The position numbers and the translations under genes were made by a program. This document shows positions 25,375 through 50,972 of a stretch of 64,000 nt of DNA, piece after piece (position 1 is the stretch's first letter; every line of letters starts with the position of its first letter). The notes beneath the pieces are model-generated. The model saw only the letters and a program-made list of their open reading frames with translations. It had not been told where the DNA came from and did no database searches. This DNA comes from the human T2T-CHM13v2.0 reference genome, Homo sapiens, in assembly GCF_009914755.1 (NCBI RefSeq), contig NC_060938.1; one strand, written 5' to 3'.

Positions 25375-25721
25375 AATTTTCATTACTTTTAAAGCTTATT
25401 AAAACCATATCTTCTATAACTCAGGCATACCTTACAGTTTCAAAAGATACATTTGATTCTTTGTATAAATATGCTATATATATGAGTGTATAATACAAAG
25501 AATCAAATGTATCATATTTATACAAAGAATCAAAGTGTATAAAGAATATTATACACTCATGTATAACATATTTATACAAAGAATCAAAGTGTATAAAGAA
25601 TATTATACACTCATATGTATAGCGTATTTATACAAAGAATCAAATGTATCTTTTGAAACTGTAAGGTATGCCTGAGTTTTAGAAGATATGGTTTTAATAA
25701 GCTTTAAAAGTAATGAAAATT
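25375..25721. repeat. 121-bp inverted repeat (25375-25495 / 25601-25721) with a 105-bp loop of short direct repeats
   Basis: arms are reverse-complementary with 3 mismatches. Confidence 0.93.
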
Positions 25722-33592: not shown

Positions 33593-34050
33593 TGCGTGCG
33601 AGCGCACACACACACACATACACACACACCCTCACCCCTAGACACCGCACGCGCGTGCACACACACACACACACCTCCTCACCCCTAGACACCGCACGCG
33701 CGCGCACACACACACACCCTCACCCCTAGACACCGCACGCGCACACACACACACCCTCACCCCTAGACACCGCACGCGCGCACACACACACCCCCCTCAC
33801 CTCTAGACACTGCGCGCGCGCACACACACACACTCACCCCTAGACACTGCACGCGCACACACACACACCCTCACCCCTAGACACCGCACGCGCGCACACA
33901 CACACCCCCCTCACCTCTAGACACTGCGCGCGCGCACACACACACACTCACCCCTAGACACTGCACGCGCGCGCGCACACACACCCTCACCCCTAGACAC
34001 CGCACGTGCGCGCGCGCACACACACACACACACCCTCACCCCTAGATACC
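33593..34050. repeat. Minisatellite/VNTR, about 11 units of ~40 bp: (CA)n-CCCTCACCCCTAGACACCGCA-(CG)n
   Basis: 11 ctagac/tac cores counted; sits inside an old L1. Confidence 0.93.
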
Positions 34051-34268
34051 TCATAAACTGCTGAAAATAAAAAGGATAATCTTGGAAGTAGCCAGAGACA
34101 AAGGTGACAATTGAACAGGCTTCTGATCAGAAACTATGTAGTCTAGAGGACAAAAGAATATCATATTAAAAGTACTGAAAGTAAAAAGCAAAAATTAAAA
34201 AGTCAACTGAAATATATACCCAGTTAAAATACCTTTCCAGGATGAAGACAAAGTAGCTTTTTAGATAA

Positions 34269-35518: not shown

Positions 35519-38500
35519 CCTCACAACTCAGTAAACTAGAAATAGATGGGAGCTTCCTCTGTGAGAAACCTACATGTTCAGTTAAAGGTGAAAGACTTTT
35601 TCCTAAGATCAGGAAAAGGCCAAAAGTGTCTGCTCTTAACCACTTTTGTTTAACAGTATACTGGACATTCTAGCCAGTACAGTAAGGCAACAAAAAGAAA
35701 AAGCATTCACATTGCAGAGAAAGAAGTAAAGCTGTCTTTTTTTTTTCTCAGATAACATTATCATATGTAGGAACCTGCAAAAGAAAAATGCTGGAACTTC
35801 CAAGCGAGTATAGAAAGGTTATGGGATATAAGATCAATATACAAAAATCAGCTGTGTTTCTACAAACCAGCAACCAACAATTGGAAACTGAAGTTTTTCT
35901 TAAACTATCAAAATAGCATTAAAATAAGTGATACTTAGAGATAAATCTGGTAAATGTTACATAAGATCTATAAACTGAAAACTATAGAACATTTCTGAGA
36001 GGAAATAATGAGAGAACTAAGTGAACTGAAATATAGATCATATTCGTGGATCAGAAGACTCAATATTGTGAAGATGTCAGTTTGCCCCAGATCAATGCGT
36101 ATATTTAATGCAAAATAATCAAAATTCAAGTAGGTTAGGTTTTTGTAGGAAATGACAAACTAATTCTAAGATTCGTATGAGAATGTAAAGGACCTAGAAT
36201 AGCCAAAACAACTTTGAAAAATAGGAACAAAATTGGAGGACTTGCATTACCTGATTTCAAGACATAATATATAGCCACAGCAGTTAATACTGTATGATTG
36301 GTGTAAAGACAGATAAAGTAATCAATGAGACATAGAGAAAGTTTAAGAAAACTCACACCTACCCCACAAATTGTCAGTTTGTTTTTGACACGGGGCAAAG
36401 GCAATTCATTATAGAGAGGATAGACTTTTCAACAAATGATGCTCAAACAGTTTGAAAAATAAATCCATACCTTGCTCCATATGCAAAAGATAAAATAGAT
36501 CATAGACCTAAATGTTAAAGACTGAAATTATTAAAACTTCTAGAGGAAACCATAAGAGAAAATTTTTGTGACCTTGGGTTAGGTAAAAGTTTCTTACATA
36601 TGACTCTAGAAGCATGATCCTTAGAAGAAAAATTTGATAAATTAGATCTGTTCTTCAGAAGACACTATTAAGTGAATGAAAAGACAAGTCAGAATGGGAG
36701 AAAATATTTGTAAATCACATAGATGACAAAGGACTGTGTTCAGAATTCATAAAGAACTTCTCAAAACACAATAATAAAACAACCCAATTTTTAGAAATAT
36801 GGAAAAATTTTTAAGATGCTTCACCAAAGAACATTGGCAGATGGCCAGTAAACATAAGAAAAGATGTTCAACATCATTAGTCATTAGGACAATGTGAGTA
36901 AATCTCCAATACACTTGTTAAAATATCTGTACTAAAAATAACAAAAAACAAACAAACAAAAAAACAGCAATTGACCATACGAAGTATTGTGGAAGACTGT
37001 AGAGCAACTCAAACTCCCTTACACTGTTGGTGGGAATATAAAATGGTACAACAACTTTAGAAAACAGGTTCTCAAAAATTTAAATATACATCTACTATAT
37101 TACTCAGCTATTTAATTCCTAAGGATTAAGAGAAAATGAAGCATCTTTTCATATAAAGTCTTATACATGAATGTTCATTGCAGCTTTACTTGTTATAGCT
37201 AAAACTGGAAACAACCCAAATATCAGTCAACTGTTGATGGATAAGTCAATTGTGGTATAACCATTCAATGATATAATACTCTTTACATATTCTGGTTATG
37301 TGTTGAAATTTCTTCTTTGACTCTGTGGCTTCTCCTGATGTTTTAGATTTTATTTTGTAAACAACATGATTGGGTTTTATTTTTTAATCCAATCTCACAC
37401 TGTATTTTAATTAGAATATTTTTCCCATTTACATTTAATGTAATTGCATAGGTCATCTTACAATTTGCTTTTTCTTTTTGCCAACTGCTCTATGTTTCTA
37501 TTTCTCTTATTTATTTTATTTGAATTGATTAAGTAGTTTTATTATTTCACTTTCCCCCTCATCTATTAGCTTGGAAGTTACAGACTCTTTTACTTTTCTT
37601 GTGTTAGTGAGCTTAGACATTACAAAAAGGACATATTATCAAAGTCGAATTTCATTGGTATTTTTACCCTTTTCCTAGATAATAATATAATTATTATTTA
37701 ATCCTCTTCTGACTTATATGTTACTGTTGTTAGCTATTTTATTTATATATTTCAGGTCTCCTAGATATTGTTTTATCTAACCAATATCTATTTAGATTTA
37801 CCCACATAGCTATCATTTTTTATTACCTGTAGTATTTCCATTTGGAATCTTTTTTTTTTTTCTGCCTGAAGAACACCTTTTAGTATTCAGTACAAGTCTG
37901 CTGGTAACAAATTATCTTTGTTTTTGTCTGTTTGAAAATGTCTTCCACATGCATTTTAAATAGATGTTTTTATTAGCATAGGATTTTACACTGTATATCT
38001 GTAGATTTCTAGAAATATGGAGGCATATTTATGGCTTTTTGACTCTGTGGCTTATTTTCTTTGGCCAGTTTTGGAAAATTCTCAGGTATCTTTTTACATG
38101 TGCCTCTGCCTAATCTTCTCTCTCTCCTCCTTCTAAGACTCCAATTTTATGTATATTAGATCTTTTAATAGTATTTCCATGTCCTTTATCTTCTTTTCTT
38201 TCTTTTCCATCCTTTTTTCTGTTTGTGATTCATTGGTGTTTTATTCTAATACACCTTCTGTCTCACTAATTCATCTGTATCTAACCTGATTTTTATTTTG
38301 ATTATTGTATTTATCTAGTCTAGAATTTCCATTTAGCTTTTTAAAATCTGCCATTTTTTATATCTTAGAGAATTCTCTGTTGAAATCCTCAATTGTATCT
38401 TTTATCCTCTTGAACCATGTATGTATCATATAGCACTAGTATCTGGAGCTCCTTTTGGCATGTTTATATTTTGTATTGTTTCTGCTTATTATCTTATCTC

Positions 38501-38619
38501 CTTATATATGTTGATATTATTGATTATGTGCTTGGTCTTGTATTTGACAAATTATTTGTAGAAATAGTTTGAGGCCTAGGATGATATCTTTCTCATGGAA
38601 GGAATATATTTTCTTCTGG

Positions 38620-39315
38620 CAGACACCTAACTGCACTAGCAATAGAGTCTTACTTAACCTGATTTCAGGTACTGGATGATTTGAAGCTGGGCTGTCCTCC
38701 CCTGCAAAGGACAGTCTATTCAGGACTGCCCTTATTCCCTACTGCAGAGGGGCTTACCAGGGACTCTGCAAGGCTGTCAGAGAAGTCACTTAGGCTCTCA
38801 GTCCCTCAAGACCCTCTTCTAGAATCAGCAAATACCCCCAGGCCCAAAGCAGGCCCCAAATTACATGCTCACTTTTCTGGATATTTGTTGTCTCTTAGAT
38901 CTTGGAAGGGTAATTTTTTACTACCCTGTTAGTTTCCATAGGCCTGTATGCAGATGATTTTTATGTTTTGTTCAGCTTTAAAAATTATCCTTGCCAAGAG
39001 GGTTGATTAGAGTTACCTAGTCTGCCTTTATTGAAAGAGGAAGTTCCCTTTCCTGTTATTATTCCTTCTTGATTTAATCTTAGAATGAGATTAACCCCAA
39101 CGTTTCTATTTATATACCTGCATAGGTTCTCTGTGCACATATATCCCTCTACCATACCCTGTTCACCATCTCCACATCCACACAGATCAACTGATTGTTT
39201 TCTAACAATACGTTAGAAGTAATCAAGAACCTAAAATTAAATATTTTGCCAAAACCCTTGTGATATATGTCCTTAATTTACACTTCTAGTTCTTAAGCTT
39301 CCTTATTTTGTTGGT
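38620..39315 (+). repeat. Left arm of ~695-bp inverted duplication
   Basis: reverse complement of 40153-40847 with about 9 substitutions and 1 indel by manual alignment. Confidence 0.95.
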
Positions 39316-40152
39316 ATGACATTACATGTATGAAGAGAAGTAATTAGATGAAGGGCAAGATAAGGGGAGATAGGAAAGCAAACATTCCCAGCATTGAGAA
39401 GGAAAGAGAAGCATGCAGATTGAATGTAGATTCAAAGAACTGAGAGAAAATCAGTGTGCCTAGAGCATAAAGCAAAAGGAGTTGCCGAGACAGTGAAAAA
39501 GCCCAAATTATGCAGATCCTTAGGTGCATTATGCAAGAGAATATTCAAATTATAGTTTTAAATGCTTTGAAATCTCATGCTGACTGTAAAGTCGAAAATG
39601 AATCAGAAGAGAGTGATGTAGGATGGAATGGAAGGGATGTAGTGGGTGAGGATCACTTGGAATCTGTTACCCTTACCTGAGCAAACCTTCAAAGTAGCTT
39701 GGACTATGGTGGAAGTAGCCTGGTTGGAGAGGTGGATGGATTAAAGAAATAGACAACAAAGCAAAACCAGGACTATATGAGCAATAAAAAACCAATAGTA
39801 TCAACGATAACTCCTGAAATCCTGGTTTGTAAACCAGGTGGGTAACAGTGGCACACACTAAGATAGGAGACTAGAGAAAGCCCACATTAGGACAAGAGAC
39901 TGGAGGAGGCCCAGGTGTTACAGGAAATACTGTGAGCTCAATTTTGGACTTGTTACCTTTGAGATACCTTTGAGACATCCGAAGTAGAGTTTGCAGAGAG
40001 TTGTATATACGGATGTGATACTCTGAACAGGTCTGCCAATAAAAAAGTAAAATTTATACAGATTACATTTAAAGTCGTTGGTGTGGAGGAGATTGTCTAC
40101 AGAGAAAATGAAGACCAAAAGTGGAGAACTGCTATTGGAAACATAATTTTAC
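39316..40152 (-). mobile_element. Diverged L2 fragment forming the spacer of the inverted duplication
   Basis: antisense L2-like motifs (caaacattcccagca; caattttggacttgttacctttgagatacctttgagacatcc). Confidence 0.6.
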
Positions 40153-40847
40153 ACCAAGAAAATAAGGAAGCTTAAGAACTAGAAGTGTAAATTAAGGACA
40201 TATATCACAAGGGTTTTGGCAAAATATTTAATTTTAGGTTCTTGATTACTTCTAACGTATTGTTAGAAAACAATCAGTTGATCTGTGTGGATGTGGAGAT
40301 GGTGAACAGGGTATGGTAGAGGGATATATGTGCACAGAGAACCTATGCAGGTATATAAATAGAAAGGTTGGGGTTAATCTCATTCTAAGATTAAATCAAG
40401 AAGGAATAATAACAGGAAAGGGAACTTCCTCTTTCAATAAAGGCAGACGAGGTAACTCTAATCAACTCTCTTGGCAAGGATAATTTTTAAAGCTGAACAA
40501 AACATAAAAATCATCTGCATACAGGCCTATGGAAACTAACAGGGTAGTAAAAAATTACCCTTCCAAGATCTAAGAGACAACAAATATCCAGAAAAGTGAG
40601 CATGTAATTTGGGGCCTGCTTTGGGCCTGGGGGTGTTTGCTGATTCTAGAAGAGGGTCTTGAGGGACTGAGAGCCTAAGTGACTTCTCTGACAGCCTTGC
40701 GGAGTCCCTGATAAGCCCCTCTGCAGTAGGAATAAGGGCAGTCCTGAATAGACTGTCCTTTGCAGGGGAGGACAGCCCAGCTTCAAATCATCCAGTACCT
40801 GAAATCAGGTTAAGTAAGACTCTACTGCCAGTGCAGTTAGGTGTCTG
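40153..40847 (-). repeat. Right arm of ~695-bp inverted duplication
   Basis: for example gtgcagttaggtgtctg (ends 40847) is the reverse complement of cagacacctaactgcac (starts 38620). Confidence 0.95.
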
Positions 40848-42560
40848 TACATTGTTAGTCCTGCTCATTGCTGGGTCTCTAGGTCTCTAGCACCTAGCAG
40901 CACAGTGCCTTGAACATAATTGAGCATTTGAGTGAGTGTATATAGTCAACAGGAATCACTGAAAGGTAGAGATCCTTATCTTTGACTTCTTTCCAGTTTC
41001 CCAGAATACGTAGTATGATGCTGGGACTTGAATGAAATTAAAATGATATTATCTTCAGAATTAGATTTTCTTTGGGCTACTTTTGAGAGAGATTAGGATA
41101 GAAGGTGAAAGTATTATGACTGACTTGGGAGAAAAAAAGCCCTGTTTCCTCTTTCTTATAGATATTTGCTAGACTTTCCATGGCTGCTTTTTTTTCTAAG
41201 AGAACTGTGTATAATTTTTGGAAAAAAATATTGAATTAATTAAATATTGCTATAGTGAATCATTCAGAAGGAATGGTTCTTTATCATTCACATCCATTAA
41301 CAAGATTATTTCTTTGAAAAGCACATCCTTTCTTTGCAAAGTTTTGAATTGCTGCTTATTTACATTTTAAGCCTAAATTATGAAATTCCTGTGATTCTAA
41401 TTTATTACGTTTAAAAATGACTTAGCAGAGTACTGCAGCTGGAAGGCTCAGTTGCAAAACTATGGTCTTTAAATTGATTTGTTTGTTTTGATGTTCTTAT
41501 GATTTGCATGGCAGCATATTTTATTGTATATTTACAATAGTCATATGATACTTGTATTTCCTTTATGGAAAGAGTTCTTAAGGATATTTTTATGTGTACC
41601 TCCTCATGAATCTTGCTAATCACTGAAATACAGACTTAGGAATGGTAAAACATATCTCCCTTTGTTATTTCTGTTTATTGTCTTCACTTCATTTTTCCCT
41701 CTCAGATTTTGATTTTCAGTGATCTCATCTAGTCCTTTACACCCTTTATTTTAGTGGTGGAATGTGGCAATCAGGGATAGGGAAAATGATGAGGTATAAT
41801 CATTAAAGGTATCTTAGAACCTGGCATATTTCAATTATTCATATTTAACCTATTTGAAAGTCTTTTATAAATATCATGATTTTATAATGAAGAGGGCTAT
41901 TACACTATTATGTTAATTACTAAAACCTCCCACATTTATGATCTTTAATAGCCCAGATATTTTATATGTCCCTGATCTTCAGTGTTTTAATATAGAAGTC
42001 CCTATTATTTAATTTCAAAATAATCAATGCTATCTCTAAAAATACACAGATATTTTGTAATTTTAGAGTTCCTTTACCTTTTACTAGCATTATTCATGAT
42101 AAATATATTTTTCAGTTTTATTCAATAAGATTCTTTTCAGAATTTGTGAAACTTAAACACTTGCTCTTTTGGAGTAAGCCAATGATTTATTTAATGCTTT
42201 TCTATATTGTGTATTTTAAGGAGAAATATCTTCCTGATGGATATAATACAGGCTTGTTGGAGACAGCTATTTCCCTCTCTGCAAGGAGTGTATTATGTTG
42301 TTTTACAAAATGCTTTCTTGCACCACTCATGTTAACTAAAGAGCGAATTTAAACACAGACGTGTCTACTGCACTTTCCTTCCTTGAATGGGTACAGTTTT
42401 TAAAACTTGGAAACGTGCCATTAACTCTTAATGTCTCATTTCATTTTTGAGGAATTCAAGTTGGGATGCCAGCCGTACAATAGTAATGTAAGAGGAATGG
42501 TAACTGGCTTAAGGCATGCACTTAAGCAATAGAGGAATTTACTTTTCAGTGTCTTCCAAG

Positions 42561-42653
42561 GTCCATGAGGATGCACACTTATTTATCCAGAGAGTATGGA
42601 TCTCACATATGTTTGTCCAGAGGGTGTGACTCTGTGGAGGAGAACACTTACTG
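42561..42653 (+). CDS. PPP4R4: Candidate alternative PPP4R4 exon in intron 3 (VHEDAHLFIQRVWISHMFVQRV-stop), for a short isoform
   Basis: ttttcagtgtcttccaag| acceptor, strong CTG|gtaagt donor; in frame with exon 3; TGA at 42627-42629. Confidence 0.6.
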
Positions 42654-42760: not shown

Positions 42761-43120
42761 TGGACAGTCCCAGATGTTGAAGTCAGCACAACAAGAGAAA
42801 AACCCAAATCCTGATAAGACTTGAGGATTTTTCGAAAATTAAATGCAAAATAGTTGGGGCAAATGTTGCTGCGGGAGTCAAGACTAAGTAATACAGTAAG
42901 AAGATATGAAGTTGGAGAGCTTCTCATGTTCTTCCTTTGTATAAAGTTTGCATACGTACAAAACCCAGGACTTTAATGACTTTAAGAGGGGGCAGAATTG
43001 CATCTCTTGGAAGTTAACAGACTCATGTGAACTGGAATGTACGTTGTGGCCCTCACAATTGATTTTAATATTTATTTGCAAAGTCCTTTCTGTTTCTAAA
43101 TAAAAGCTGTGCCTTCTGAA
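42761..43120 (+). other. PPP4R4: Candidate alternative terminal (3' UTR) exon with AATAAA at 43099-43104
   Basis: tttcttaacag| acceptor 107 nt after the donor at 42654; downstream AATAAA; 3' end is approximate. Confidence 0.45.
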
Positions 43121-44004
43121 ACCTGTAAGTGATGTATACTGGCCACATCAAATCTTTTAAAAGTGTTTTCCAAACCCCAAATTGTTAGTGTGGAAGAAAT
43201 GTTTCTTTTGGGAACACTAAAACAAAGGGGTATGGGAGGATTGATTTCAGAGACCACTTGCTGCTTCTGCTTTATACTTTAACATTCTTTCCCTCTTTCT
43301 CTCAGCCAAGAACTCTCATGATATGTAACTGACTTTTGGTTGAAAAAACATGTAAAATAATGTTTTTGTGTATGATACAAAAGTTTAGAATAAAACAAAA
43401 ATCAGCCACTCTAATATGTGGTAGGTTTTCTGGCAATTAACCATAGCACATAGACATTTGCCACAGGAAATGCCACTGCCAGATCTCCCACACCGCCACA
43501 TGAAGGCTTAGCATTGCTTTAAGTCATGCCTTAATAAATGATGAATGGAAGTGCAGAGTCCGTGAGGAAGAATTCAGTGCATAGGAGTGTTTTGGCATCT
43601 GGTAGACAATTGTTTGTTAGAGTTGCCAGTTATTAGCTTGCTGGCCTTTATCAAAGTGCTTTACTATTCTGTTTCTTCTGCTGTAGAAATCCCTGTGTTA
43701 TCCCCTATTGTGATGACTGACAGTGTCCCACTGTGCTGAATCAAGAAGACTGGGTATATAGGTCCAAATCATGGTTATGGAGATGTTAGGGTAGAAGACA
43801 GCAGTATGGACATGATAGAAAGAGGATTGAGAATACATTTCTATGTGATCCATTTTTGCTTTGCCTTCTATCTAATTCTGCCAATTCCTAATCTTTAGGA
43901 CTCACCTCAAAATCTCTTGAAGCCACTTTTTGGGAGATGTGCAAAATGTGTGTGAAGGGAGAGAGCATCAAGAGCAGAAAGCGTAGGTGAGAGGGTAAGA
44001 GACA

Positions 44005-48053: not shown

Positions 48054-48408
<355 letters not shown>

Positions 48409-48929: not shown

Positions 48930-49036
48930 ATTTTGAATCCACTTGTTTCCAAGGCACAACTTTCCCAAACAGTCCAGTCTCGTTTAGTTAGTTGTAAAAT
49001 TTTAGGAAAATTGACCAACAAATTTGATGCCCACAC
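48930..49036 (+). CDS. PPP4R4: PPP4R4 coding exon (exon 6): ILNPLVSKAQLSQTVQSRLVSCKILGKLTNKFDAH(T)
   Basis: ttctctttag| acceptor, CAC|gtgagt donor; 107 nt. Confidence 0.95.
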
Positions 49037-49838: not shown

Positions 49839-49946
49839 CATTAAGCGAGAAATACTTCCTCTGGTAAAATCACTCTGTCAAGATGTAGAATATGAAGTTC
49901 GATCTTGTATGTGTCGGCAATTAGAAAATATAGCCCAGGGCATTGG
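49839..49946 (+). CDS. PPP4R4: PPP4R4 coding exon (exon 7): (T)IKREILPLVKSLCQDVEYEVRSCMCRQLENIAQGI(G), HEAT repeat
   Basis: ccttcag| acceptor, TGG|gtaggt donor; 108 nt; HEAT-type LP..L..D....VR motif; ORF 49768..49950. Confidence 0.95.

Positions 49947-50597: not shown

Positions 50598-50972
<375 letters not shown>

What the first reader, a model, noticed from the sequence alone, without database searches (positions are those of the whole stretch)
38620..40847. Near-perfect 695-bp inverted duplication in PPP4R4 intron 3, with an 837-bp spacer
Seen: 38620-39315 is the reverse complement of 40153-40847, with about 9 substitutions and a 1-nt indel (about 98.5% identity). The arms are ancient, decayed sequence, not a pair of young transposons, so the high identity needs a recent duplication or ongoing gene conversion. 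Inference: close inverted repeats like this are substrates for recurrent NAHR inversion of the spacer, which short reads largely cannot see, and for fork-stalling hairpins.
Basis: partly seen in the sequence, partly recalled or inferred. Interest (0 to 1): 0.85.

Follow-up and report, generated by a model that had tools for sequence, protein, structure and literature searches.

The report
Small inverted duplication in PPP4R4 intron
A 0.7-kb piece of a PPP4R4 intron was copied backwards about 0.8 kb downstream some millions of years ago, leaving a real but ordinary kind of inverted repeat that could let the stretch in between flip and would make the intron RNA fold into a long double strand.

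Summary
Window 38620-39315 is the reverse complement of 40153-40847, with 9 substitutions and one 1-nt indel (98.6%), around an 837-nt single-copy spacer. In T2T-CHM13 the arm has only these two copies and the spacer is unique, so this is a locus-specific inverted duplication and not a transposon pair.

New here: an ancient interspersed repeat (copies 60-74% identical) runs from the left flank across the outer edge at 38620 into the left arm. The right flank shows nothing comparable. The left arm is therefore the parent and the right arm the derived inverted copy.

The layout of parent, single-copy spacer and inverted copy, with a 5-nt inverted microhomology at the inner junction and a blunt outer junction, fits a fold-back or template-switch origin. 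The differences are evenly spread. At recalled mutation rates, 1.3% divergence gives about 6-13 My, so ongoing gene conversion is not needed, though it is not excluded.

Spacer inversion by NAHR is plausible but could not be tested here. Hairpin-driven fork stalling is weakly supported. The sense pre-mRNA is predicted to form a roughly 700-bp duplex.

The finding is real and modestly interesting, a new member of a known kind.

The parts
38620..39315 (+). Left arm, the parental copy, sitting in its ancestral context
   Evidence: Inverted pair. Homology to copies of an ancient repeat runs from the left flank through 38620 into this arm.
39316..40152 (.). Single-copy spacer of 837 nt (819 nt by the tool's looser arm edges, 39325-40143). 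This is the stretch that would flip if the arms recombine.
   Evidence: Unique in the genome apart from one 48-nt 88% match. No inverted or direct homology to arms or flanks above shuffled controls. No Rfam match.
40153..40847 (-). Right arm, the derived inverted copy of 38620-39315
   Evidence: 98.6% reverse-complementary to the left arm. Homology to the ancient repeat is confined to the arm and does not continue into the right flank.
39311..39315 (.). Inner-junction microhomology (TTGGT), left member. It is followed by about 14 nt of imperfect similarity (39316-39329).
   Evidence: Alignment printed. Anchored-extension score 7 against a null mean of 2.6, P about 0.03.
40153..40157 (.). Inner-junction microhomology (ACCAA), right member. 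It is preceded by imperfect similarity (40139-40152).
37999..39028 (.). Ancient interspersed repeat (family not named here) that spans the left outer edge of the duplication
   Evidence: Pairwise blastn against 14 genomic copies. L012 covers 37999-38641, L011 covers 38035-38694, L006 covers 38470-38674. L007 covers 38180-38592 plus a collinear 38817-39028. L019 covers 38023-38585 plus a collinear 38764-38880.

Best explanation
This is a locus-specific inverted duplication of about 0.7 kb of ordinary intronic sequence.

Shown: the two arms are the only copies in the genome. The left arm (38620-39315) lies in its original context, because an ancient repeat continues unbroken from the left flank into it. 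The right arm (40153-40847) is therefore the derived, inverted copy, placed 837 nt downstream.

Inferred origin: one break or stalled fork at the present spacer/right-flank boundary. The free 3' end folded back, or switched template, onto the same region at a short inverted microhomology (ACCAA/TTGGT). It copied about 0.7 kb leftwards, then was released and joined bluntly to the right flank. This left the arrangement parent, single-copy loop (spacer), inverted copy.

Inferred age: 1.3% arm divergence, evenly spread, corresponds to roughly 6-13 million years at recalled mutation rates, with no gene conversion needed.

Inferred consequences: (i) the arms are a possible substrate for intrachromatid NAHR that would flip the 837-nt spacer without gain or loss. 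The rate is probably low, because the longest perfectly identical tract is only 207 nt. (ii) The arms can exchange sequence by gene conversion. (iii) PPP4R4 pre-mRNA, which contains both arms in one intron, can fold into a roughly 700-bp near-perfect duplex. That is the kind of structure ADAR enzymes edit. It is removed with the intron, so no effect on the mature mRNA is expected.
For: Structure and identity.

Uniqueness: the arm matches only itself, its partner and one 113-nt 74% stretch on chr3. The spacer is unique.

Direction of copying:
- Of the 14 copies of the flank repeat fetched and compared pairwise, 3 (L006, L011, L012) have one alignment running 55, 75 and 22 nt past 38620. Identity inside the arm (60%, 65%, 73%) is like that outside it (73%, 62%, 62%).
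- Two more (L007, L019) have separate, same-strand, collinear matches in the flank and in the arm, with similar gaps (233 vs 252 nt; 179 vs 250 nt). Their arm matches are significant on their own (E 3e-6 and 8e-17).
- Mirror control (5 of the 14 loci): on the right side homology exists only inside the arm (L007 at 40440-40643, L019 at 40588-40704). Nothing significant adjoins it beyond 40847.

Other support:
- No decayed homology beyond the arms.
- Even spread of differences.
- Divergence 9/695 = 1.29%, Poisson 95% interval 0.59-2.46%.
- Junctions: a 5-nt inverted microhomology within 14/18 imperfect similarity at the inner junction (P about 0.03), and a blunt outer junction (P 0.84).
- Literature (passages read): all 21 sequenced human inverted-duplication junctions had a single-copy spacer of 766-70,466 bp, and 13 had 2-8 bp of inverted microhomology, interpreted as fold-back (PMC3907307). 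The MMBIR model predicts inverted segments from switches in inverted orientation and needs a second switch (PMC2621351).
- RNA: MFE -1517.8 kcal/mol for 38600-40867 on the sense strand, against -554 to -579 for 5 shuffles. There are 696 inter-arm pairs and the longest unbroken helix is 261 bp.
Against: - No outgroup or second haplotype could be examined. The empty site, the age and the absence of conversion are inferred from one sequence.
- The three alignments that run through the edge are not significant on their arm parts alone. An arm-only query found matches in 2 of 14 loci and none in 12 of 14 at E <= 0.05. 9 of the 14 copies end before the edge.
- The inner-junction similarity is only marginally above chance (P about 0.03, one test chosen after looking).
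- The exact junction is ambiguous: 5 nt of microhomology if it lies at 39310/39311, none if at 39315/39316. In the latter case a 3-nt direct repeat (TAC) abuts the copy.
- Any later flip of the spacer would have swapped the inner junctions, so only the outer-junction argument is robust.
- Fold-back was documented for megabase terminal duplications, not for 0.7-kb interstitial ones.
- The dates rest on recalled mutation rates.
- No expression or editing data were available.
Confidence: 0.65

Rival explanations
1. The duplication is much older than 1.3% suggests, and the arms are kept alike by recurrent gene conversion, with or without repeated flipping of the spacer, as in the large sex-chromosome palindromes.
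For: Arms of about 700 nt at high identity, only 837 nt apart, are able to convert each other (established knowledge, recalled). Inverted-repeat-flanked human inversions show shared variants and recurrence (passages of 10.1101/501981). Differences are slightly denser near both arm ends: 2 in the first 23 nt, and 39310 plus three more within 39316-39320.
Against: The spread of differences does not depart from uniform (max tract P = 0.30, KS P = 0.30). There is no mosaic of long identical and divergent blocks. A single event at 1.3% explains everything seen. This cannot be excluded from one haplotype.
Confidence: 0.2
2. The structure is a mobile element: either a DNA transposon with about 700-nt terminal inverted repeats, or two insertions of one young element in opposite orientation.
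For: The outer termini read CAG...CTG, and the overall layout of inverted ends around a core looks like a transposon at first sight.
Against: There are only two copies of the arm and one of the core in 3.1 Gb. No target-site duplication flanks the unit, and the 25-nt flanks share no word of 4 nt or more. The left arm is continuous with an older repeat in the flank, so it was not inserted. No ORF above 83 aa. Caveat: the genome search skips very common words and scores only the best candidates.
Confidence: 0.02
3. The second arm is an assembly or sequencing artefact (a chimeric palindromic read).
For: None from the sequence.
Against: The arms differ at 9 substitutions (6 transitions, 3 of the 9 touching a CpG) and one indel, and they enclose an 837-nt unique spacer. 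Artefactual fold-back reads give identical arms without a spacer (recalled). The whole structure is 2.2 kb, far shorter than the long reads behind this assembly (recalled). Reads were not available here.
Confidence: 0.02
4. The hairpin is a selected RNA element. It might be an intronic duplex that tunes splicing or 3'-end choice around exon 42550-42653 and the short-isoform terminal exon 42761-43128, or it might be a source of small RNAs.
For: The predicted duplex is very stable and lies on the sense strand, 1.7 kb upstream of the next exon. Long near-perfect duplexes are rare in genes: 2,018 in the genome, 88% of them intergenic (section 10 of PMC11838218).
Against: No Rfam family matches. 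There is no compensatory pattern to examine with only two arms. The differences include ordinary mismatches. The arm is a copy of decayed repeat sequence. Long duplexes in genes are reported as selected against rather than for (passages of PMC7006430).
Confidence: 0.05

Closest known systems
Inverted repeats that flank human NAHR-mediated polymorphic inversions (InvFEST 'HsInv' set; Aguado 2014, Giner-Delgado 2019)
   Same: Two highly identical inverted copies bracket a short single-copy segment. The arm length (696 nt) is inside the reported range (654 bp to 24.2 kb, >90% identity). The ratio of repeat length to inverted length is high, which that study found to be the main correlate of inversion frequency.
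   Different: No second orientation has been seen here. The locus is not among the chr14 inversions of PMC3961182, which lie at 34 and 60 Mb in that paper's coordinates. The arms are below the 1-kb floor used to pick inverted segmental duplications as candidates. The longest perfect tract is only 207 nt.
Fold-back inverted duplications with a single-copy ('disomic') spacer (Hermetz et al. 2014, PMC3907307) and MMBIR/FoSTeS template-switch products (Hastings et al. 2009, PMC2621351)
   Same: The order is parent, single-copy spacer, inverted copy. The 819-837 nt spacer lies within the reported 766-70,466 bp. There is short inverted microhomology at the junction between spacer and inverted copy (5 nt here, 2-8 bp there).
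   Different: Those cases are megabase, usually terminal, pathogenic and recent. This one is 0.7 kb, interstitial, fixed in the reference and millions of years old. It needed a second join back to the same chromosome, and that join is blunt here.
Long, nearly perfect intramolecular dsRNAs of human transcripts (Barak et al. 2020, PMC7006430; dsRNAscan preprint, PMC11838218)
   Same: It passes their criteria by prediction, being longer than 300 bp and more than 96% paired. It is intronic, so it is removed by splicing.
   Different: Most of the 2,018 catalogued cases form between inverted LINE elements and 88% are intergenic. This one is made of unique sequence inside a gene. Whether it is listed in their tables could not be checked, because supplements are closed.
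Large primate X/Y palindromes maintained by arm-to-arm gene conversion
   Same: Inverted arms of very high identity around a short unique spacer.
   Different: Those arms are tens of kilobases to megabases long, carry genes and are conserved across species (recalled). Here the arms are 0.7 kb of decayed repeat, and nothing shows conversion.

Membership tests
Locus-specific inverted low-copy repeat capable of NAHR inversion | Two copies in inverted orientation on one chromosome, >90% identical | tested here: met
   98.6% over 696 columns.
Locus-specific inverted low-copy repeat capable of NAHR inversion | Not simply two members of a dispersed repeat family | tested here: met
   Only two copies of the arm in the genome. 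Caveat: the search skips very common words.
Locus-specific inverted low-copy repeat capable of NAHR inversion | Formal segmental-duplication size (at least 1 kb) | tested here: not met
   The arms are 696-705 nt. The 1-kb floor is as used in PMC13629690.
Locus-specific inverted low-copy repeat capable of NAHR inversion | Both orientations of the spacer observed among haplotypes or species | not testable with these tools
   Only CHM13 is reachable. PPP4R4 with 'inversion' or 'inverted' gave 5 and 8 papers, none on this. Catalogue tables are in closed supplements.
Fold-back / template-switch inverted duplication | Single-copy spacer between parent and inverted copy | tested here: met
   The 837-nt spacer is unique and has no homology to the arms. 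The reported range is 766-70,466 bp.
Fold-back / template-switch inverted duplication | Short inverted microhomology at the junction between spacer and inverted copy | tested here: inconclusive
   5 nt perfect within 14/18 imperfect similarity, P about 0.03. The junction position is ambiguous.
Fold-back / template-switch inverted duplication | One arm in ancestral context, the other a novel insertion | tested here: met
   The ancient repeat crosses the left outer edge (5 of 14 copies) but not the right one.
Fold-back / template-switch inverted duplication | Empty site (no right arm) in an outgroup | not testable with these tools
DNA transposon with long terminal inverted repeats, or inverted pair of one transposon family | Target-site duplication at the ends | tested here: not met
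   The 25-nt flanks share no word of 4 nt or more.
DNA transposon with long terminal inverted repeats, or inverted pair of one transposon family | Multiple dispersed copies | tested here: not met
Conversion-maintained palindrome | Arm-to-arm identity higher than expected from the age of the duplication (paralogues cluster within species) | not testable with these tools
   This needs orthologues. The within-sequence proxy (patchiness or an edge gradient) is not significant.
Long near-perfect intramolecular dsRNA (ADAR/MDA5-type substrate) | More than 300 bp and more than 96% paired on the transcribed strand, both arms in one transcript | tested here: met
   696 inter-arm pairs and MFE -1517.8 kcal/mol. 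Both arms lie in one PPP4R4 intron on the + strand. This is a prediction only.
Long near-perfect intramolecular dsRNA (ADAR/MDA5-type substrate) | A-to-I editing clusters or dsRNA capture in vivo | not testable with these tools
   No RNA data. PPP4R4 with 'A-to-I' gave 0 papers, and with 'dsRNA' gave 5 unrelated ones.
Cruciform or hairpin-forming fragile palindrome (PATRR-like) | Arms adjacent or separated by a very short spacer | tested here: not met
   The spacer is 837 nt. Fragility falls steeply with spacer length in duplex DNA.

The most novel reading that the evidence does not exclude
The 837-nt spacer toggles between orientations in living humans and apes, as a sub-kilobase-armed recurrent micro-inversion missed by SD-based candidate lists. 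The same great-ape-era duplication gave PPP4R4 pre-mRNA a roughly 700-bp near-perfect duplex of unique sequence that is heavily ADAR-edited. Together with the second unique inverted repeat 13 kb upstream in the same intron, it would mark this intron as a local hotspot of template-switch duplication.
Probability: 0.15. Interest if true: 0.45.

Novelty: new member of a known kind. Interest (0 to 1): 0.3.

Why it matters
Inverted duplications of this size fall between the usual catalogues. They are too short for the segmental-duplication track (1-kb floor). They are not transposons, so repeat annotation does not flag them. Their arms are longer than short reads, so a flip of the spacer would go unseen without long reads.

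This case is unusually readable. An old repeat that crosses one edge shows which arm is the parent without any outgroup, and the junctions fit a fold-back or template-switch origin.

If the spacer proves polymorphic, it would add a data point at the low end of arm length for NAHR inversions. If the intronic duplex is edited, it would be one of the few long near-perfect duplexes in a human gene built from unique sequence.

No effect on PPP4R4 protein is expected, because everything lies within one intron.

Tried and rejected
- **Wider, decayed homology around the arms.** Local alignments of the 1-kb outer flanks (inverted and direct), the spacer halves, spacer against flanks and arm against flanks or spacer were all within 200 shuffles. 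The best was the outer flanks in direct orientation, score 34, reached by 5 of 200 shuffles. I take that as low-complexity chance.
- **Known RNA family.** None at E <= 1 in 37600-41900.
- **Coding content.** The largest ORF is 83 aa. I did not scan ORFs against Pfam, and I did not name the ancient repeat's family. No repeat library is available here, so 'ancient repeat' rests only on 60-74% identity to dispersed copies.
- **RefSeq masked-repeat track.** No masked stretch of 100 nt or more lies in the arms or spacer. However, only 9.5% of the window is masked in such pieces, so this track misses old repeats and says little.
- **Ancestral contiguity of spacer and right flank.** I could not test it through a repeat spanning them, because neither has dispersed matches.
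- **Literature.** PPP4R4 was paired with 'inversion' (5 papers), 'inverted' (8), 'A-to-I' (0) and 'dsRNA' (5). None concerns this structure, judged from titles and abstract starts. One broad search was too loose to be useful. The chr14 inversions in PMC3961182 are elsewhere.
- **Closed supplements.** Inversion and dsRNA catalogues keep their coordinates in supplementary tables: Table S1 of PMC13629690, Table S2 of the Porubsky preprint and Table S5 of PMC11838218.
- **What I read of each paper.** Passages only (find mode) of PMC3961182, 10.1101/501981, PMC7006430, PMC3907307, PMC2621351, PMC10164571, 10.1101/2021.12.20.472354 and PMC13629690. For PMC11838218 I read section 10 in full plus passages.
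- **Recalled, from no call.** Mutation rates of 0.5e-9 and 1e-9 per site per year, human-chimpanzee divergence of about 1.2%, minimal identical-tract sizes for NAHR, the look of palindromic read artefacts, and the sizes of the sex-chromosome palindromes.
Full report
**1. The observation**

The repeat finder gives 38738-39324/40144-40730 (587 nt, 98%) and 38620-38738/40729-40847 (119 nt, 98%). This is one repeat split by a 1-nt indel. A global alignment of 38620-39315 with the reverse complement of 40153-40847 has 9 substitutions and one 1-nt indel, 686 of 696 columns. Six substitutions are transitions, and 3 of the 9 touch a CpG in one arm.

The outer edge is abrupt. The inner edge fades over about 20 nt. 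In the whole 64-kb window this is the longest and most similar inverted pair. The next is a 299-nt pair at 92% that looks like two Alu elements, a name I recall and did not test. The structure lies in intron 3 of the NM transcripts of PPP4R4, 1.7 kb upstream of exon 42550-42653.

**2. What the arms are**

A search of the whole T2T-CHM13 genome with the left arm finds itself, its partner (98%, 1210 bits) and one 113-nt, 74% match on chr3. The spacer finds only itself and a 48-nt, 88% match. So this is neither a pair of young transposons nor a transposon with long terminal repeats. There is also no target-site duplication and no ORF above 83 aa. Rfam has nothing at E <= 1.

The RefSeq masked-repeat track shows nothing in the arms. 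That track covers only 9.5% of the window, so it cannot speak to old repeats.

**3. Which arm is the original**

A 4.3-kb query around the structure brought up 40 distinct dispersed places. All match the left flank, except the chr3 place, which matches the arm. A sensitive pairwise comparison showed that the chr3 locus matches the left flank and the left arm collinearly.

I fetched 14 of the 40 places with 2-kb margins and compared each with 36600-39800.
- Three copies give one alignment that runs through the edge at 38620: L006 at 38470-38674, L011 at 38035-38694 and L012 at 37999-38641. Identity inside the arm (60%, 65%, 73%) is similar to that outside it (73%, 62%, 62%).
- Two copies give separate, same-strand, collinear matches on both sides with similar gaps: L007 at 38180-38592 then 38817-39028, and L019 at 38023-38585 then 38764-38880. 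Their arm matches stand on their own (E 3e-6 and 8e-17).
- Nine copies end at or before 38592.
- With the arm alone as query, 12 of 14 give nothing at E <= 0.05. The run-through alignments are therefore supportive, not independent, evidence.

In the mirror test on the right side (5 of the 14 loci), homology appears only inside the right arm. Nothing significant follows beyond 40847.

The left flank and left arm are thus parts of one ancient element, whose copies are 60-74% identical. The left arm is the parent and the right arm is the derived inverted copy. This argument uses the outer junctions, which a later flip of the spacer would not disturb.

**4. How it probably arose (inference)**

The layout of parent, single-copy spacer and inverted copy is the one found at all 21 sequenced human inverted-duplication junctions in PMC3907307. 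There the spacers were 766-70,466 bp, and 13 junctions had 2-8 bp of inverted microhomology. The authors explained this by a resected end folding back on itself and priming synthesis (passages). The MMBIR model likewise yields inverted segments from a switch in inverted orientation, followed by a second switch (passages of PMC2621351).

Here the inner junction carries a 5-nt inverted microhomology (TTGGT at 39311-39315, ACCAA at 40153-40157). It sits within 14/18 imperfect similarity. The anchored-extension score is 7 against a null mean of 2.6, P about 0.03. The outer junction is blunt (P 0.84).

The exact junction is ambiguous. If it lies after 39315, there is no microhomology, and instead a 3-nt direct repeat abuts the copy. 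No decayed homology extends beyond the arms, so the event copied a discrete segment of about 0.7 kb.

**5. Age and conversion**

Divergence is 9/695 = 1.29% (Jukes-Cantor 1.31%; Poisson 95% interval 0.59-2.46%). That gives 6.5 My (3-12) at 1e-9 per site per year, or 13 My (6-25) at 0.5e-9. Both rates are recalled. This is about the recalled human-chimpanzee divergence.

The 10 differences are evenly spread. The longest identical tract is 207 nt against a simulated mean of 189 (P = 0.30), and the KS test gives P = 0.30. A single duplication therefore suffices. Conversion is neither needed nor excluded.

**6. Consequences**

- **Inversion.** Validated NAHR inversions have inverted repeats of 654 bp to 24.2 kb at >90% identity. 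The ratio of repeat to inversion length was the main correlate of frequency (passages of 10.1101/501981). A 2026 catalogue spans repeats of 140 bp to 190 kb, but it picked untested candidates only from duplications of 1-50 kb (passages of PMC13629690). In 41 genomes, about 85% of inversions under 2 kbp were internal to L1 insertions (abstract and passages of 10.1101/2021.12.20.472354). This locus is a fair candidate, but nothing here shows a second orientation. The longest perfect tract, 207 nt, argues for a low rate.
- **Hairpins in DNA.** With an 837-nt spacer this is unlikely in duplex DNA. In yeast, going from 12 to 100 bp cut inverted-repeat-induced recombination 300-fold, and a 1.5-kb spacer cut rearrangements 31-fold. 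Widely spaced repeats did still interact inside long single-stranded DNA (passages of PMC10164571).
- **RNA.** The sense transcript of 38600-40867 folds with 696 inter-arm pairs at -1517.8 kcal/mol, against -554 to -579 for 5 shuffles. Such long, more than 96% paired duplexes number 2,018 in the human genome. They are mostly between inverted LINEs, and 88% are intergenic (section 10 of PMC11838218). They are depleted from transcripts (passages of PMC7006430). This one is spliced out with the intron. Editing is expected but untested.

**7. Known or new**

No paper in the searchable library links PPP4R4 with an inversion, an inverted repeat, dsRNA or A-to-I editing in its main text. The chr14 inversions of PMC3961182 lie elsewhere. 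Catalogue tables are in closed supplements, so the locus may be listed there. In kind it is a small inverted duplication of a well-known type, so I file it as a new member of a known kind.

**8. Verdict**

Interest is 0.3.

Noticed in passing
window 25375-25721: A second locus-specific near-perfect inverted repeat lies in the same PPP4R4 intron. The arms are 25375-25495 and 25601-25721 (121 nt, 98% complementary). They surround a 105-nt AT-rich centre that itself holds a roughly 50-nt tandem duplication. It is unique in the genome: only itself and its own reverse complement (83% over 347 nt) match. With so short a spacer it is a better candidate for DNA hairpin formation than the main finding.
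   Followed up: partly
window 33610-34078: A tandem array with a unit of about 37-40 nt. 11 overlapping 114-nt copies were reported, 61-97% identical to the reference copy (family D1).
   Followed up: no
window 48055-48353 and 50674-50972: An inverted pair of 299 nt at 92% complementarity, 2,320 nt apart, flanking exons 48930-49036 and 49839-49946. From their size and many partial copies in the window they are probably two Alu elements, a name I recall and did not test. Such pairs across exons are the usual setting for back-splicing (pair I2).
   Followed up: no
window 37694-38592 and L019 (G000:C3:181634102-181640214): The left flank is built of several segments of ancient dispersed repeats: query segments 167-372, 433-671, 691-748 and 864-993. 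The chr3 locus carries them in the same order over about 1.4 kb. The family could not be named without a repeat library.
   Followed up: partly
window 1-64000: Only 9.5% of the window is covered by masked-repeat stretches of 100 nt or more in the supplied annotation. That is far less than dispersed-repeat content usually is in human DNA (recalled). Absence from that track is therefore not evidence of unique sequence.
   Followed up: no
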